Of a stretch of DNA of 52,738 bases, positions 2,243 to 8,080 are shown one piece after another. The stretch lies in assembly GCA_964649615.1 (NCBI GenBank), contig CAZYPW010000005.1, positions 41,387 through 94,124 of the forward strand, written 5' to 3'. Under the pieces are notes generated by a model. It did not search any database and was not told where the DNA came from. It saw nothing but the letters and a program-made list of their open reading frames with translations. A program made the position numbers and the translations under genes. Every line of letters starts with the position of its first letter. The stretch's first letter is position 1. This DNA is from an uncultured Gammaproteobacteria bacterium. GTDB lineage: Bacteria; Patescibacteriota; Microgenomatia; Daviesbacterales; UBA10151.

Positions 2243-2332
2243 TTAAAGTTCAAAATTCAAAATGCAAAATGACAATTAAAAATTTAAAATTTTAAACTGC
2301 AACTTTTAACTTTTCATTTTACACTTTTAACT
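2243..2332. repeat. Heptamer-repeat palindrome after atpC
   Basis: ttaaagttcaaaattcaaaatgcaaaat ... aacttttaacttttcattttacacttttaac; overlaps the atpC stop. Confidence 0.8.
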
Positions 2333-2595
2333 TGTTCTTGGGGCTGAATATAAGTATAAATATCTACTTTATTTTGCTGGACATAGATGATGGCTACTGG
2401 AAATTTAAAGGTTAAAGCTTTTTGGCCTTTAATCCTGATAATAATTGGTTGGTTTTCAATCACAGTGATAAAATTGGCGTGTTCAGATAAGATATCAAAA
2501 GAACCCTGGGAGTTCTTGGAAGAAACCGAATCTGCATTTGTATCAAGAATGAGCTGTTGGGGAGAGATGATACGGACATGTAAGGTTTGATTCAT
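2314..2595 (-). CDS. atpC: F1 ATPase epsilon subunit (N-terminal domain only)
   Basis: LHVRIISP...VSSKNSQGSFDILSEHANFIT matches the epsilon beta-sandwich; last gene of the atp operon. Confidence 0.8.
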   Translation of the reverse strand: MNQTLHVRIISPQQLILDTNADSVSSKNSQGSFDILSEHANFITVIENQPIIIRIKGQKALTFKFPVAIIYVQQNKVDIYTYIQPQEQVKSVK

Positions 2596-2676
2596 AATTC
2601 AAAACTCAAAAATCAAAAGTCAAAAGTTCAAGTAAAAAGACTAAAAGTTTTTACTTTTTAACTTTTACCTTTTAAC
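2596..2676. repeat. Heptamer-repeat palindrome filling the atpD-atpC gap
   Basis: aattcaaaactcaaaaatcaaaagtcaaaag ... tttttactttttaacttttaccttttaac. Confidence 0.85.
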
Positions 2677-4050
2677 TTAGATGATCCCTGCCTCCCTCAA
2701 TGATCCAATAAACATAAATTTTTCTGTTGGGATGTTATCTAACGAGCCAGATAATATCATTGTGATATCTTTTACAGCAGTATCTCTACCAACATACACC
2801 CCTGTTCTGCCAGTCTGTTTTTCTGCCATAAAAAATGGTTGGGTTAAATAATTGATAATTTTCTTGGTCCTGTTATATAAAATCCTATTTTCAGCTGACA
2901 GTTCAGATTCTCCTACAATTGCTACAATATGAGATAGTCTGTCATAATTTGATAGTAATTGCTGAAACTGAGTTAGAGCTTTAAAATGAGCCTCACCTAA
3001 AAATGATTTAGCCAAAGTAGCAGAAGCAGAATTGGATATATCAATAGGAGGATAGATGCCTTTTTGGGCAATACTTCTGGATAGAACGATTGAGGTATCA
3101 AGTAGAGAAGAAACTGCACTAACTCCAGCATCTGATATCTCATCAGCAGGCACATAAACATTTTGAAAAGAGGTGATAGTGCCGTTTTCAGTGGGGATTA
3201 GCCGATCCTCAATAGAGGAGATCTCTGTTTGCAGGGTGGCCTGGTAAGCTTGTTCAGAAGGGGTGGTACCCAAAAGTGTTGCCACCTCAGCTCCTGCTTG
3301 AACAAATCTGAACATATTATCTATAAAAAACAGCACATCAGTTTTAGCCACATCCCTAAAATATTCTGCCTGGGCTACAGCAGCCTGGGCCACTCTAAAC
3401 CTGATTGAAGCATTTTCATTCATCTGGCCCAACATGATGATGGTTTTTGGCAAAACGCCTGATTCTTCCAAGCGCTGGAATAATTCCTGGCCTTCCCTAA
3501 TCCTTTCTCCCACCCCTGCAAAAACAGAATAAACATTTTTACTTTTTGAAGTGACATTATGCAATAGTTCTGTTAATAGGATGGTTTTCCCTACCCCTGC
3601 ACCTCCTATAAAGCCTACTTTTCCACCTCTTTGGATGGGAGTTAGAAAGTCTATGGCTTTAATGCCAGTTTCCAGCAGTTCATAGCCTGTTTTAACAATA
3701 TTTAAAGAAGGAGCTTTGGTATAAATAGAAACTGTTTCACCCTTGGGGATTATTCCAGCATTGTCCCGGGGGGCCCCAAAAAGATCTATCACTCTTCCCA
3801 AGACACTGTTTCCTACAGGAATTTTCAAATCAGAACCGCTGCCTAAAATTTTCATCCCCCTAATTAATCTGTCAGCCCCGCTTAAAATCTGGCAAAAAAT
3901 TCCATCAGTGCTCTCTGAAAATACCTCCAGCATAATAAAAGGGTCATCAGGAGCGAGCAAAATCTCATTAAGCTCAGGGTAGGCATCTCCTGCTATCTCT
4001 ACAGTGGCAATTTGGCCATTAACAGCTTTAATAATGCCTTGTGATAACAT
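2677..4050 (-). CDS. atpD: F1 ATPase beta subunit
   Basis: GGAGVGKT P-loop, [28 protein letters not shown]. Confidence 0.95.
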
Positions 4051-4109
4051 AATTCAAAAATCAAAAATCAAAATGCAAACTTTTAACTTTACACTTTAAA
4101 TTTTTAACT
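4051..4109. repeat. Heptamer-repeat palindrome filling the atpG-atpD gap
   Basis: aattcaaaaatcaaaaatcaaaatgcaaac ttttaactttacactttaaatttttaact. Confidence 0.85.
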
Positions 4110-4949
4110 TTATTGCATCCCTCCTTTCCTGCTAGATAAAGATCCGGCATAATTTTCCAAAATTTGGTTATTAATTAAGCTTCTTTTTAAGTAAGCCTTA
4201 ATTTTTTGGGATTCTTTAATAAACTTATTAGCTTCTGTTTCTGCCTGATCCATGGAAATAAACCTGGAGGCAGTCCTGGAAACCTCAGATTCTAAAAAAG
4301 TTTCTTCCAAAAGCAGGGTTAGAATTTGATTATCAAAAAAATCTAATACTTTGCTAAGTTCTGGTTCAAAGATGAATTTAATTTTTTCTTCCTCTTTTGA
4401 GCTAGCTGGGATTTGAGCCACTTTAGCAATATCTGTATAGGTGGGATCTTGGATTAATAAGGTTCTCAGCTTAGAAAAAAAGATTAGCACTTGGTTGTAA
4501 TTTTTTAAACTGGCTACCAAAGCAGTTAGCTCAGAGGCATTAGGCTGGTCTTTGGCTAGAATAACTTCCTGAAGTGATCCAAAATCTTTACTTTTCCTAA
4601 AATAAGCTTGGGCTGTTTTGCCAATAATAATTCTATCTGTTTTAAGTTCTTTGGTTTTTTCAATGTAATAATCTATTAAATCAGAATTAATATCACCATA
4701 AAATCTATAATTAGAAGTGATAATGATGCTTAAGGTTTGGGTGGGTTTGGAGATGCTGATATTGCGCTTTAGGGCTAAAGCCCGAATCAAGCTAAAAACC
4801 TGGGAGATTTCTTGAAAAAACTCCCTGTTTCTTTCCAGGTTTACCCTTAAGAGTTTGATTTTTTGGTTGGCAATTTCAGAATAGGCCTGCGCTACCATTT
4901 TAAATGAATAACCCTCTTCAATTAATTGGTCAACTTCTTTAATAGTCAT
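4110..4949 (-). CDS. atpG: F1 ATPase gamma subunit (divergent)
   Basis: Position between alpha and beta; IITSNYRFYGDINS, FIFEPEL, SRTASRFISMDQAETEA motifs. Confidence 0.85.
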   Translation of the reverse strand: MTIKEVDQLIEEGYSFKMVAQAYSEIANQKIKLLRVNLERNREFFQEISQVFSLIRALALKRNISISKPTQTLSIIITSNYRFYGDINSDLIDYYIEKTKELKTDRIIIGKTAQAYFRKSKDFGSLQEVILAKDQPNASELTALVASLKNYNQVLIFFSKLRTLLIQDPTYTDIAKVAQIPASSKEEEKIKFIFEPELSKVLDFFDNQILTLLLEETFLESEVSRTASRFISMDQAETEANKFIKESQKIKAYLKRSLINNQILENYAGSLSSRKGGMQ

Positions 4950-4954
4950 TAATT

Positions 4955-6822: not shown

Positions 6823-6823
6823 A

Positions 6824-7300
6824 CTATCTTAAAAATTTCTTAAAGCTTTGCAAGATAACTTCTTTTCTCTCTTCAATTCTGGCCTTCAAGGAGTAATCCT
6901 TATAAACTCCATTCCAAACTAGGGAACATCCAGCTATTAACTTTAAGTCAAATTTTAAATCAATCAATTTGAAGGAGTTAAAGTTTTTTCTATAATACTC
7001 TCCAAGCTCAGTAATTAGTTCATCAGGGGGATTGAAGGCTAAATTTAAGGCCAAAGTAGGAGTTTGTTTTAGTTTAGATTCTAAAAAGGAAAATGTTTCC
7101 TCAAGGTTTGCAGGGGTAAATTGTTGAAAAAAAGTTTCAGGCAGCAGTTTCAGCCACTTTAAATCCTCAGCAGTTGGTTCAATTAAAATAGCCCCCCCAT
7201 AAAATTTTTGGGCAAAGTTGCTCTTTAAAATTCTCAATCTGTGTTTAAATTGAAAAACAGTATAAGTTTTTCCCAATATAGCCTCAAATATTTGATCCAT
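6824..7300 (-). CDS. atpH: ATP synthase delta-like subunit
   Basis: C-terminal DLKLIAGCSLVWNGVYKDYSL resembles the delta/OSCP motif; sits before atpA. Confidence 0.7.
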   Translation of the reverse strand: MDQIFEAILGKTYTVFQFKHRLRILKSNFAQKFYGGAILIEPTAEDLKWLKLLPETFFQQFTPANLEETFSFLESKLKQTPTLALNLAFNPPDELITELGEYYRKNFNSFKLIDLKFDLKLIAGCSLVWNGVYKDYSLKARIEERKEVILQSFKKFLR

Positions 7301-7303
7301 AAT

Positions 7304-7990
7304 TTAACTTAAGAATTTCTCACCCTTGGCTTTTTCTAAGGCCTCATAAATGAGATCAAGCTGGTCTTTTAAAGAGAGTTTTTTACCCAAAACCACACTC
7401 AAAGTTTGTTCCATAATTGCTAAAATATTTTCATCAACAGCTTTAAGCTGGGCATTTTTATAATTCTCTAATAGTTCTTTGGCAGCCTTAATTTCCAGAT
7501 CAATAGAAGAAAGGGTTTTTTGTTCAGTGGAGACTAAAAAATCAGATAATCTTTCTTCCATCCTGCCAAAGATTTGGTTAATTCTGGCTTTAGTTTCTTC
7601 CTGGGAAAATTTTTCCAGCTCTTGAGCCTGCCTTTGGAGCTGCTGGATAAAGGCTAATAAACTATTTTGAGCTTCACTAACAGAAATTTGGGATTGTTTA
7701 GCTATCTCATCTAATCTTTTTTTATATTCACCTTCTAATTTAGCAGTTTCAACTTTAGTATCAGCTACCACTTTTACTCCCTCAAGTTCAGCCTGGCCTA
7801 AAATATCCTGGGATTTTTTATAAGACTGTTGTAAAGCCTCCAATCCTTTTTCCCTGAATTGGCCAATGATTTTCTGGCCTTCTTTTTCTAATGATTGCCT
7901 CCTGTTATATTCCCTAAGGTAGAGGAAAATCCCTGCCAGGGTGGTGATAGATAGTATTATGGTGGGTAAACTAATGGGCAGTTCGGGCAT
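7304..7990 (-). CDS. atpF: ATP synthase b-like subunit (one TM helix plus coiled coil)
   Basis: Single N-terminal TM, long charged coiled coil, operon position; low sequence-level certainty. Confidence 0.55.
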   Translation of the reverse strand: MPELPISLPTIILSITTLAGIFLYLREYNRRQSLEKEGQKIIGQFREKGLEALQQSYKKSQDILGQAELEGVKVVADTKVETAKLEGEYKKRLDEIAKQSQISVSEAQNSLLAFIQQLQRQAQELEKFSQEETKARINQIFGRMEERLSDFLVSTEQKTLSSIDLEIKAAKELLENYKNAQLKAVDENILAIMEQTLSVVLGKKLSLKDQLDLIYEALEKAKGEKFLS

Positions 7991-8004
7991 GATTTGATAA
8001 TAGC

Positions 8005-8080
8005 AAGTTTAAAGTGTAAAATGCAAAGTGTAAAATAACAAGGTAAATATTAAAAATTTTGATTTTTGATTTTTGATTTA
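8005..8080. repeat. Heptamer-repeat palindrome upstream of atpF
   Basis: aagtttaaagtgtaaaatgcaaagtgtaaaat ... aattttgatttttgatttttgattt. Confidence 0.8.

What the first reader, a model, noticed from the sequence alone, without database searches (positions are those of the whole stretch)
2243..8080. Heptamer hairpins fill operon junctions from stop codon to start codon
The atp operon has six such arrays. The atpC and atpD starts share the same junction (CAT|AATTCAAAA on the plus strand). The atpD, atpG and PEGA-gene stops are followed by TAA|(A)GTTAAAA. The same placement occurs at rplL, rplK, the EamA gene and the BldC-like gene. The hairpins occupy the RBS position and no Shine-Dalgarno is visible, suggesting codon-boundary targeting or a role in mRNA processing or translational coupling (inference).
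Basis: partly seen in the sequence, partly recalled or inferred. Interest (0 to 1): 0.65.

Follow-up and report, generated by a model that had tools for sequence, protein, structure and literature searches.

The report
Heptamer hairpin elements filling operon junctions
The hairpins between the ATP-synthase genes of this tiny-genome (Candidatus Daviesbacteria) bacterium are copies of a dispersed palindromic insertion element built from 7-base units; one copy carries a small '23S rRNA intervening-sequence protein' gene, and the copies have landed in gene junctions that were originally only 0-6 bases long, which is why they run from stop codon to start codon.

Summary
Period-7 arrays are about 10 times commoner than other periods. 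In the window they fill the atpD-atpC, atpG-atpD, rplJ-rplL, nusG-rplK, GH1-EamA, PEGA-mreB and comEC-argS junctions.

They are dispersed insertion elements, not gene-specific signals:
- One family has at least 12 copies at 85-94% identity, mostly 105 nt (15x7) or 97-98 nt long, in both orientations.
- Its full-length copy is the 'array pair' around window 5000-5380, whose loop holds a PF05635 (IVP) gene.
- Other copies sit in frame inside LeuRS and glycosyltransferases.

In related atp operons from metagenomes, 72 empty junctions have a median of 3.5 nt. Occupied ones carry 60-200-nt hairpins of many sequences. The stem starts at the stop codon (median -1 nt) and ends about 7 nt before the start (23 versus 2, p=4e-5). 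TAG stops are enriched at occupied junctions and are often in register with the repeat.

So 'fills the junction' follows mainly from insertion into very short coupled junctions. A bias towards the stop codon is real but unexplained.

Lack of a Shine-Dalgarno is genome-wide. No RNA data exist, so processing and coupling are untested. The IVP link recurs in this scan's notes; I found no paper describing it.

The parts
2243..2333 (-). Heptamer hairpin after atpC. The atpC reading frame runs about 17 nt into the 5' arm and ends at a TGA (2314-2316) supplied by the array.
   Evidence: Sequence; inverted repeat I6; sense fold -22.8 kcal/mol, z = -3.9. Relatives align only to atpC residues 1 to about 86 of 93.
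2596..2676 (-). Heptamer hairpin filling the atpD stop to atpC start junction (TAA|GTTAAAAGG ... TTTTGAATT|ATG).
   Evidence: fold -18 kcal/mol, z = -2.4, stem starts at base 2 of the stop codon. The right arm is 97% identical over 34 nt to the same junction in metagenome locus L046.
4051..4109 (-). Heptamer hairpin filling the atpG stop to atpD start junction.
   Evidence: fold -16.1 kcal/mol, z = -4.7, with 9 nt left unpaired including the ATG.
4950..5373 (-). Full-length, gene-bearing element between atpA and atpG. The two arms are 5318-5369 (upstream in the sense direction) and 4956-5007, and the loop is 310 nt.
   Evidence: Inverted repeat I3: 52-nt arms, 71% complementary. The arms belong to the same family as the empty hairpins at 43363-43465 and 30367-30475.
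5000..5380 (-). IVP gene (PF05635 23S_rRNA_IVP; TIGR02436 four helix bundle protein), 124-126 aa. Its second ATG overlaps the atpA TGA as ATGA. Its N-terminus and its stop codon are encoded by the arms.
   Evidence: Pfam E = 2.7e-14; NCBIfam TIGR02436 E = 2.5e-17; coordinates read.
7991..8077 (-). Two heptamer arrays (ATCAAAA x3, then TTTTACA/CTTTGCA units) between the c-like fusion gene and the b-like gene. They are not complementary in the sense RNA.
   Evidence: fold -1.4 kcal/mol, z = +1.0. The arm is shared with L044 at the same position, 93.5% over 31 nt.
30361..30476 (-). Family A empty hairpin (105 nt core) filling the rplJ stop to rplL start junction.
   Evidence: (I2); fold -27.2 kcal/mol, z = -3.9.
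43354..43468 (-). Family A empty hairpin (97 nt core) filling the nusG stop to rplK start junction.
   Evidence: (I1); fold -28.4 kcal/mol, z = -3.4.
48824..48930 (-). Family A empty hairpin (98 nt core) filling the GH1 stop to EamA start junction.
   Evidence: fold -25 kcal/mol, z = -4.0.
22871..22946 (+). Heptamer hairpin filling the PEGA-gene stop to mreB start junction.
   Evidence: fold -18 kcal/mol, z = -2.8.
14467..14596 (+). Heptamer hairpin (AATTTTA / ATTGTAA units) filling the comEC stop to argS start junction.
   Evidence: fold -25 kcal/mol, z = -2.5.
11465..11567 (+). Heptamer hairpin (AATCGT / AACGA units) inserted in frame in LeuRS, between EELW and WSIH.
   Evidence: Orthologues in G009 and eight or more other relatives lack about 27-30 residues here. 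Other hairpins occupy the same site in G004 and G011.

Best explanation
The junction hairpins are copies of a dispersed palindromic insertion element whose arms are tandem 7-nt units. This is the same kind of element that, in full-length form, carries a PF05635 '23S rRNA intervening-sequence protein' (IVP, four-helix-bundle) gene in its loop. It therefore resembles a gene-bearing rRNA intervening sequence living outside rRNA, with gene-less MITE-like derivatives.

Shown:
- The elements are repeated, with lengths that cluster at 14-15 heptamers.
- They occur in both orientations.
- They are present or absent among relatives at the same junction.
- They also occur in frame inside genes.

Shown: the atp junctions they occupy are 0-6 nt long when empty, so an insert there necessarily runs from stop to start. 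The insert sits flush with the stop codon, or supplies it, and leaves about 7 nt before the start.

Inferred: only strongly self-pairing inserts survive in such tightly coupled junctions. The stem loops the insert out and brings stop and start together again. A ribosome terminating at the stop codon melts the base of the stem and frees the start region of the next gene, as in the RNA-unfolding model of translational coupling.

Inferred and untested: the stop-codon bias reflects either a TA(A/G) target preference or the element donating its own stop triplet.
For: Family structure:
- blastn finds about 20 places matching the 43355-43475 element at 84-100% identity.
- Twelve full copies run from CTCAAA to TTTGAG: 105 nt in six, 97-98 nt in four, and 100 and 111 nt in two.
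- All share a central CTACA/TGTAG motif. They also share fixed non-complementary positions (G.G or C.C at mirrored columns 26/88, T.T or A.A at 32/82). These positions reveal two insertion orientations, 6 against 5 relative to host transcription.

IVP link:
- The arms 4956-5007 and 5318-5369 bracket a PF05635 gene.
- Three of the five PF05635 matches in the genome are bracketed by inverted heptamer arrays with different units.
- So are 8 of 13 IVP genes sampled in related genomes.

Insertion history:
- Relatives G015 and G007 have compact junctions with SD motifs where this genome has hairpins.
- Across the related metagenome loci (atpD at least 55% identical to the query) there are 72 empty junctions with a median of 3.5 nt, and 36 occupied junctions of 45-200 nt with many unrelated sequences.
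- Longer inserts in the same junctions carry HicAB-like and HigBA-like pairs and a RAYT-like gene, judged by eye from the translations.

Placement: stop-side gap median -1 nt and start-side gap median 7 nt, 23 against 2, p = 4e-5. TAG is enriched at occupied junctions, p = 0.003, and the stop triplet recurs at +7, +14 and +21.

In-frame copies: LeuRS and a GT4 glycosyltransferase.

The coupling mechanism is taken from the review PMC12548453.
Against: - No transposase or other mobility gene is linked to the elements, and target-site duplications could not be shown: TAA/TAG direct repeats flank about half of the family A copies, but the flanks are AT-rich.
- Arms of the atpD-atpC and c-like/b-like elements are 93-97% identical to those at the same junctions in loci whose atpD is only 72% identical. 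This fits selection on the sequence, or repeated site-specific invasion, better than neutral junk.
- In intergenic copies the sense RNA folds better than the antisense in 14 of 18 cases, a weak hint of RNA-level selection.
- The review read reports that structure just after a stop codon correlates negatively with coupling efficiency in a random-library screen in E. coli. This argues against the looped-out coupling idea.
- No transcript data exist for this organism.
Confidence: 0.65

Rival explanations
1. The hairpins are host-selected RNA elements. They would act as RNase III processing sites or 3'-end stabilisers that set the relative amounts of the cistrons (for example alpha3 beta3 against gamma1 epsilon1), or as designed coupling devices. 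They would be kept for that function rather than merely tolerated.
For: - The genome encodes RNase III.
- Long AU-rich stems of 20-45 bp lie at many junctions of highly expressed operons such as atp, rplJL and nusG-rplK.
- The sense strand is more stable than the antisense in 14 of 18 intergenic copies.
- Arms are conserved at 93-97% at the same junction in loci L046 and L044, despite 72% atpD identity.
- rRNA intervening sequences of the same gene family are excised by RNase III, as stated in PMC11270868.
Against: - Most relatives have 0-6-nt junctions with no hairpin at all.
- Occupied junctions carry unrelated sequences.
- Family A sits in either orientation, 6 against 5.
- The same elements lie in frame inside LeuRS and glycosyltransferases.
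- One atp 'hairpin' does not fold in the sense RNA.
- Occupancy does not follow subunit stoichiometry: delta-atpA 3/20, atpA-atpG 8/23, atpG-atpD 11/19, atpD-atpC 21/38 junctions longer than 25 nt.
Confidence: 0.17
2. The arrays arise on the spot by replication slippage of a 7-nt seed at the junction (stop codon plus a 4-nt spacer is 7 nt), followed by local inverted duplication. On this reading they are microsatellite-like growths, not insertions.
For: - There are 73 different canonical heptamer units in one genome.
- The stop codon is in register with the first unit in several relatives (L060 TAGAATC, L061 TAGTTAA, L075 TAGACGG, L076).
- Many one-armed arrays lie inside genes.
Against: - Family A has at least 12 copies that share a central CTACA motif, fixed mismatches and a common length, at unrelated loci.
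- The two hairpins in the G007 atp operon are near-identical copies of each other.
- Full-length copies carry a gene.
- Slippage does not explain matched inverted arms.
Confidence: 0.1
3. The hairpins are intrinsic transcription terminators or attenuators.
For: They are stem-loops followed by T-rich sequence. One follows the last gene of the operon (2243-2333).
Against: - None of the hairpins is called by the terminator scan, which found 6 sites against 6.6 expected, all elsewhere.
- The stems are AT-rich.
- They lie between genes of obligate complexes (atp, ribosomal proteins).
- Convergent gene ends are the least occupied class, with 3 of 122 clusters.
Confidence: 0.03

Closest known systems
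ORF-bearing intervening sequences (IVS) of 23S/16S rRNA genes that encode S23p/IVP (Leptospira, Coxiella; also seen in CPR rRNA genes, PMC11270868)
   Same: Both have a long imperfect stem enclosing a small PF05635 gene. Both are inserted in a transcribed, essential locus. Gene-less short forms exist for both, and both are sporadically distributed among relatives.
   Different: Here the host is an mRNA operon junction or a protein-coding frame, not an rRNA helix. The arms are phased 7-nt repeats whose units differ between copies. RNase III excision is not shown. No 23S rRNA gene is present in this genome bin for comparison.
REP/BIME, MITEs and other small palindromic repeats of bacteria (reviewed in PMC3184786, listed but not read); Rickettsia palindromic elements for the in-frame copies
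   Same: All are dispersed, about 100-nt, hairpin-forming and non-autonomous copies found between co-transcribed genes. Some are inserted in frame in proteins, and occupancy varies among relatives.
   Different: The arms are internally periodic (7 nt), and lengths cluster at 14-15 units. Many sequence families share the design. The linked gene is a four-helix-bundle protein, not a RAYT or a DDE transposase. No target-site duplication is proven.
Intergenic heptamer direct repeats (TAACTGA repeats of Beggiatoaceae, Cyanobacteria and Bacteroidetes, PMC4679880; cyanobacterial STRR)
   Same: They are tandem 7-nt units between genes, often ending a few nt before a start codon. The units contain stop triplets. 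A role in translation has been proposed.
   Different: Those are described as direct repeats of one unit (one inverted set among 170 in BOGUAY). Here most intergenic arrays come as complementary pairs, with many units, and are tied to an IVP gene.
RNA-unfolding model of translational coupling (phage f1 genes VII/IX, MS2 coat/lysis; review PMC12548453)
   Same: A stem reaches from the end of the upstream gene to just before the downstream start, so that a terminating ribosome would open it.
   Different: This is a mechanism, not a family. Nothing has been measured here. The stems are inserted mobile sequences rather than evolved local pairings.

Membership tests
IVP-bearing intervening-sequence-type element | Encodes a PF05635 / TIGR02436 four-helix-bundle protein | tested here: met
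   Window 5000-5380: Pfam E = 2.7e-14; TIGR02436 E = 2.5e-17.
IVP-bearing intervening-sequence-type element | The gene is enclosed by long inverted arms that can form a stem | tested here: met
   Arms 4956-5007 and 5318-5369, 52 nt, 71% complementary. The same holds for 2 other copies in the genome and for 8 of 13 copies in relatives.
IVP-bearing intervening-sequence-type element | Inserted in an rRNA helix | tested here: not met
   The copy lies between atpA and atpG. The genome bin holds no 23S rRNA gene.
IVP-bearing intervening-sequence-type element | Excised from the transcript by RNase III without religation | not testable with these tools
MITE / non-autonomous derivative of a gene-bearing element | Multiple near-identical short copies share their termini with a longer gene-bearing copy | tested here: met
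   at least 12 short copies at 85-94% identity, plus the 410-nt IVP-bearing copy with the same termini (ATCTCAAA ... TTTGAGAT).
MITE / non-autonomous derivative of a gene-bearing element | Target-site duplication and a cognate transposase | tested here: inconclusive
   TAA/TAG/TAAA direct repeats flank about half of the copies, but the flanks are AT-rich. No transposase is linked, and IVP has no known catalytic role.
REP/RAYT system | Short GC-rich REP hairpins with an associated Y1 (RAYT) transposase | tested here: not met
   The elements are AT-rich, about 100 nt long and heptamer-phased. The only RAYT-like gene seen was in one relative's junction, flanked by different GC-rich palindromes (L046).
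Intrinsic terminators | GC-rich stem followed by a U-tract | tested here: not met
   The terminator scan calls none of the hairpins.
Heptamer direct-repeat arrays (TAACTGA / STRR type) | Tandem 7-nt units, intergenic, close to start codons | tested here: met
   The start-side gap has a median of about 7-8 nt. They differ from this type in being paired as inverted arrays.

The most novel reading that the evidence does not exclude
IVP-associated heptamer hairpins may be a class of mobile element specialised for the stop-start junctions of streamlined genomes. On this reading they integrate at the stop codon (TA[A/G]) and supply the new stop triplet from their first repeat unit. By folding, they keep the downstream gene translationally coupled. 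The full-length form expresses its Avd-like IVP protein by ATGA coupling to the host gene, and IVP would recognise the phased 7-nt units to drive copying. Bacterial heptamer repeats (STRR, TAACTGA) would then be the remains of the same system.
Probability: 0.2. Interest if true: 0.85.

Novelty: new variant of a known kind. Interest (0 to 1): 0.6.

Why it matters
The finding links three poorly explained things:
- bacterial heptamer tandem repeats;
- the very large PF05635 'IVS protein / four-helix-bundle' family (Avd-like from my own knowledge; not tested here);
- the palindromic inserts found in CPR genes.

It shows that in small genomes these elements colonise the few bases between coupled genes of essential operons. 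About 40% of the atp junctions sampled across related atp operons are occupied. That poses a concrete question: how is translation of the next gene maintained in an SD-poor organism when a 100-nt stem lies between stop and start?

It also warns annotators. Stop codons, C-termini (atpC), N-termini (IVP, a signal-peptide-like region) and internal loops (LeuRS, glycosyltransferases) can be written by these repeats.

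Tried and rejected
1. RNA evidence. No RNA runs hold this sequence.
2. 23S rRNA. I looked for an IVS with heptamer arms in this genome's 23S rRNA, but the bin has no 23S gene.
3. Rfam. No family matches any hairpin; the only matches are two tRNAs.
4. Terminators. Rejected.
5. Enrichment at co-directional junctions. My first test gave 27 of 28, but it was biased because it conditioned on long spacers. By junction counts (859 co-directional, 171 divergent, 174 convergent) the split of 33/11/3 array clusters is not enriched for co-directional pairs. 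Only convergent ends look depleted.
6. Sense against antisense folding over all clusters showed no difference (18 against 18, p = 0.37). Only the intergenic subset leans to the sense strand (14 against 4), and the intragenic subset leans the other way (4 against 14). The meaning is unclear, and it depends on my crude ORF calls.
7. Target-site duplications for family A were inconclusive.
8. Closer relatives for exact empty sites. None is closer than about 78-82% atpD identity, either in species representatives or in metagenome contigs.
9. In four junctions with at least 30 nt of slack the hairpin appeared to sit next to the start codon. At least one case is an artefact of which fold domain was chosen, so I dropped the claim.
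10. The 448-nt insert at the atpA-atpG junction of L039 starts with a family-A-like terminus, but I could not show an intact IVP gene in it.

Full report
**What is there**

The window is part of a 1.14-Mb, 31-contig genome bin from groundwater. Earlier notes of this scan call it Candidatus Daviesbacteria, a CPR lineage.

On the minus strand lies an F1-type atp gene row:
- a fusion protein with a subunit-c-like C-terminus, 8078-8950;
- a b-like gene, 7304-7990;
- delta, 6824-7300;
- atpA, 5371-6822;
- a 126-aa gene, 5000-5380;
- atpG, 4110-4949;
- atpD, 2677-4050;
- atpC, 2314-2595.

Tandem 7-nt arrays are a real feature of the genome. There are 162 arrays at period 7, against 3-31 at periods 4-12 and 5 in shuffled sequence. 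With a strict threshold the counts are 67, at most 6, and 0. At least 73 different units occur.

Seven of the eight junction RNAs tested, and the post-atpC element, fold on the sense strand into single long hairpins with z-scores of -2.4 to -4.7. The stems start at or within a few nt of the stop codon, except in the PEGA-mreB fold, and end 0-21 nt before the ATG. The exception is the pair of arrays at 7991-8077, which does not fold (z = +1.0).

No Rfam family matches any hairpin, and the terminator scan calls none of them.

**What the hairpins are**

Its 310-nt loop holds the 126-aa gene (I3).

That gene is a PF05635 23S_rRNA_IVP / TIGR02436 four-helix-bundle protein:
- Its second ATG overlaps the atpA stop as ATGA.
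- Its first 20 or so residues are encoded by one arm, and its TGA lies in the other.
- The element ends 6 nt before the atpG ATG.

The same arms, with only 1 nt between them, form the hairpins at nusG-rplK (43363-43465) and rplJ-rplL (30367-30475). A further copy lies at GH1-EamA (48828-48929).

Genome-wide, blastn finds about 20 places at 84-100% identity. Twelve full copies, measured from CTCAAA to TTTGAG, are:
- 105 nt (15x7) in six cases;
- 97-98 nt (about 14x7) in four cases;
- 100 and 111 nt in two cases.

They share a central CTACA/TGTAG motif and fixed non-complementary positions. At mirrored columns 26/88 the two bases are G and G in some copies and C and C in others. This shows that the element has a polarity and is inserted in either orientation relative to the host genes, 6 against 5 with one unclear.

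This is the signature of a dispersed insertion element with a gene-bearing form and gene-less derivatives.

The IVP link is not a one-off. Three of the five PF05635 matches in this genome are bracketed by inverted heptamer arrays with different units. So are 8 of 13 IVP genes sampled from related genomes, each with its own unit. Many earlier notes of this scan reach the same reading in other genomes. I treat them as leads only; the tests above are my own.

I found no paper describing the link. The nearest papers are:
- PMC4679880 on TAACTGA heptamer direct repeats that end just upstream of start codons;
- PMC11270868, which reports IVP ORFs inside CPR rRNA insertions.

**Not only junctions**

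The 122 array clusters are distributed as follows under my crude ORF calls:

| Location | Clusters |
|---|---|
| Deep inside ORFs (mostly one-armed) | 55 |
| Co-directional junctions | 33 |
| Divergent spacers | 11 |
| Convergent spacers | 3 |
| Within 150 nt of a called start | 17 |
| Within 60 nt of a stop | 3 |

About 7% of the genome is non-coding under these calls, so intergenic space is strongly enriched, but coding copies are common.

The LeuRS copy (11465-11567) is a complete hairpin in frame between EELW and WSIH. Orthologues in G009 and at least eight other relatives lack about 27-30 residues there. In G004 and G011 the same site holds hairpins with other heptamer units.

**Why they run from stop to start**

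I fetched 80 related atp operons from metagenomes and located the genes by tblastn.

Junction lengths are bimodal:
- 72 empty junctions have a median of 3.5 nt (quartiles 1-6), for example TAA-ACT-ATG.
- 36 junctions are 45-200 nt long; 26 of these hold clear hairpins.
- A few are longer than 200 nt.

The occupied junctions carry many unrelated sequences, both heptamer-type and GC-rich palindromes. The long ones carry HicAB-like and HigBA-like pairs, a RAYT-like gene and a long-form IVP, as judged from the translations.

Species-representative relatives show the same pattern. G015 has compact junctions with SD motifs. G007 has two near-identical hairpins, at atpA-atpG and atpD-atpC, but an SD junction at atpG-atpD.

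An insert into a 0-6-nt spacer must span stop to start.

**What remains non-trivial**

1. Asymmetry. In the 26 occupied junctions the stem begins at the stop codon (median -1 nt, quartiles -2 to 1.5) and ends 7 nt (quartiles 5 to 11) before the start. The stop-side gap is the smaller in 23 cases and the larger in 2 (p = 4e-5). In this genome 20 of 27 junction hairpins begin within 2 nt of the stop.

2. Stop codon identity. TAG is the stop in 15 of 36 occupied junctions but in only 9 of 67 empty ones (p = 0.003).

3. Register. The stop triplet recurs at +7, +14 and +21, which means that in a subset the stop codon is the first three bases of the first repeat unit (examples L060, L061, L075 and L076). 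In the window, atpC itself reads 17 nt into the array and stops at an array TGA. Its last 7 residues are not matched in relatives.

So either the elements prefer TA(A/G) at gene ends, or they enter just before the stop and donate a new one. These p-values treat junction sequences as independent, and they are only de-duplicated, so they are approximate.

4. Conservation. Two arms are 93-97% identical to arms at the same junctions in loci whose atpD is 72% identical. That is too conserved for neutral spacer sequence.

**Shine-Dalgarno**

Only 10-14% of well-defined starts have a core SD, against 5-6% in shuffled controls. AAATT|ATG is the commonest start context in the genome. The lack of an SD at hairpin junctions is therefore ordinary for this organism.

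**How it most likely works**

Shown: these are insertion elements of an IVP-linked family sitting in formerly tightly coupled junctions.

Inferred: a self-pairing insert is tolerated because the stem brings stop and start back together. A terminating ribosome opens the stem base and exposes the next start. This is the RNA-unfolding model reviewed in PMC12548453. The same review cites a screen in which structure just after a stop lowered coupling, which counts against this idea.

RNase III is encoded in the genome, so IVS-like cleavage is possible, but it is untested.

The rival readings (host-selected processing sites, local slippage, terminators) are weighed in their own sections.

**Limits**

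- Gene calls are my own greedy ORF calls.
- No relative is closer than about 80% atpD identity, so exact empty sites and target duplications are unresolved.

Noticed in passing
window 8078-8950 (-), arrays at 8829-8852 and 8887-8904: The gene where atpE would be expected is a 290-aa fusion. It has a signal-peptide-like N-terminus, a soluble middle part and a weak subunit-c-like C-terminus (TIGR01260, E = 0.005). The hydrophobic N-terminal stretch ([10 protein letters not shown]...LPTTNYQL) is itself encoded by two heptamer arrays, (AACTAAT)n and (AGTTGGT)n, which pair with G.U wobbles only on the plus strand. No subunit a was found in the operon.
   Followed up: partly
window 29806-30360 (-), rplL: L7/L12 has a roughly 60-residue N-terminal extension before its dimerisation domain (Pfam match starts at residue 64). 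The extension is encoded by degenerate 8-9-nt repeats (TCTGAGTT-like) next to the family A hairpin. The true start may be internal.
   Followed up: no
window 2111-2230: Repeated TGCATAGAT(T/C) boxes lie between the post-atpC hairpin and the start (2110) of a MerR/BldC-like HTH gene. A similar pair of boxes lies downstream of atpC in relative G017 (L006 4100-4165), so they look like a conserved operator.
   Followed up: no
G000 C15:3130-3290 and C7:20530-20650: Two family A copies carry the same GC-rich mini-hairpin (GCCCCTCCTTTGGAGGC) in their loop. It looks like a second tiny repeat nested inside the first.
   Followed up: no
whole genome, contigs C2, C3, C9, C12: Heptamer-array density differs about 10-fold between contigs: 0-0.4 per 10 kb on C2, C3, C9 and C12 (GC 0.33-0.35), against 2-4 per 10 kb on C1, C4, C5, C6, C10 and C15 (GC 0.36-0.38). 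These may be islands, or contigs from another organism in the bin.
   Followed up: no
metagenome loci L045, L029, L036, L046, L034 (atp junctions): The same atp junctions in relatives also hold larger selfish cargo: HicA/HicB-like and HigB/HigA-like pairs, a RAYT-like transposase flanked by GC-rich palindromes, and a nucleotidyltransferase-like pair. These assignments are by eye from translations only.
   Followed up: partly
G000 C6:65368-68997: The genome has a second, distant ATPase alpha/beta pair (42% identity to atpD) on another contig, so this atp row is not the only rotary-ATPase-like locus.
   Followed up: no
window 9021-9232: The divergent spacer before leuS holds (GGGTATA)n at 9021-9042 and (TAATACY)n at 9204-9232. 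These can pair only with G.U wobbles on the plus (leuS sense) strand, across a 160-nt loop. The likely leuS start is about 47 nt further downstream.
   Followed up: no
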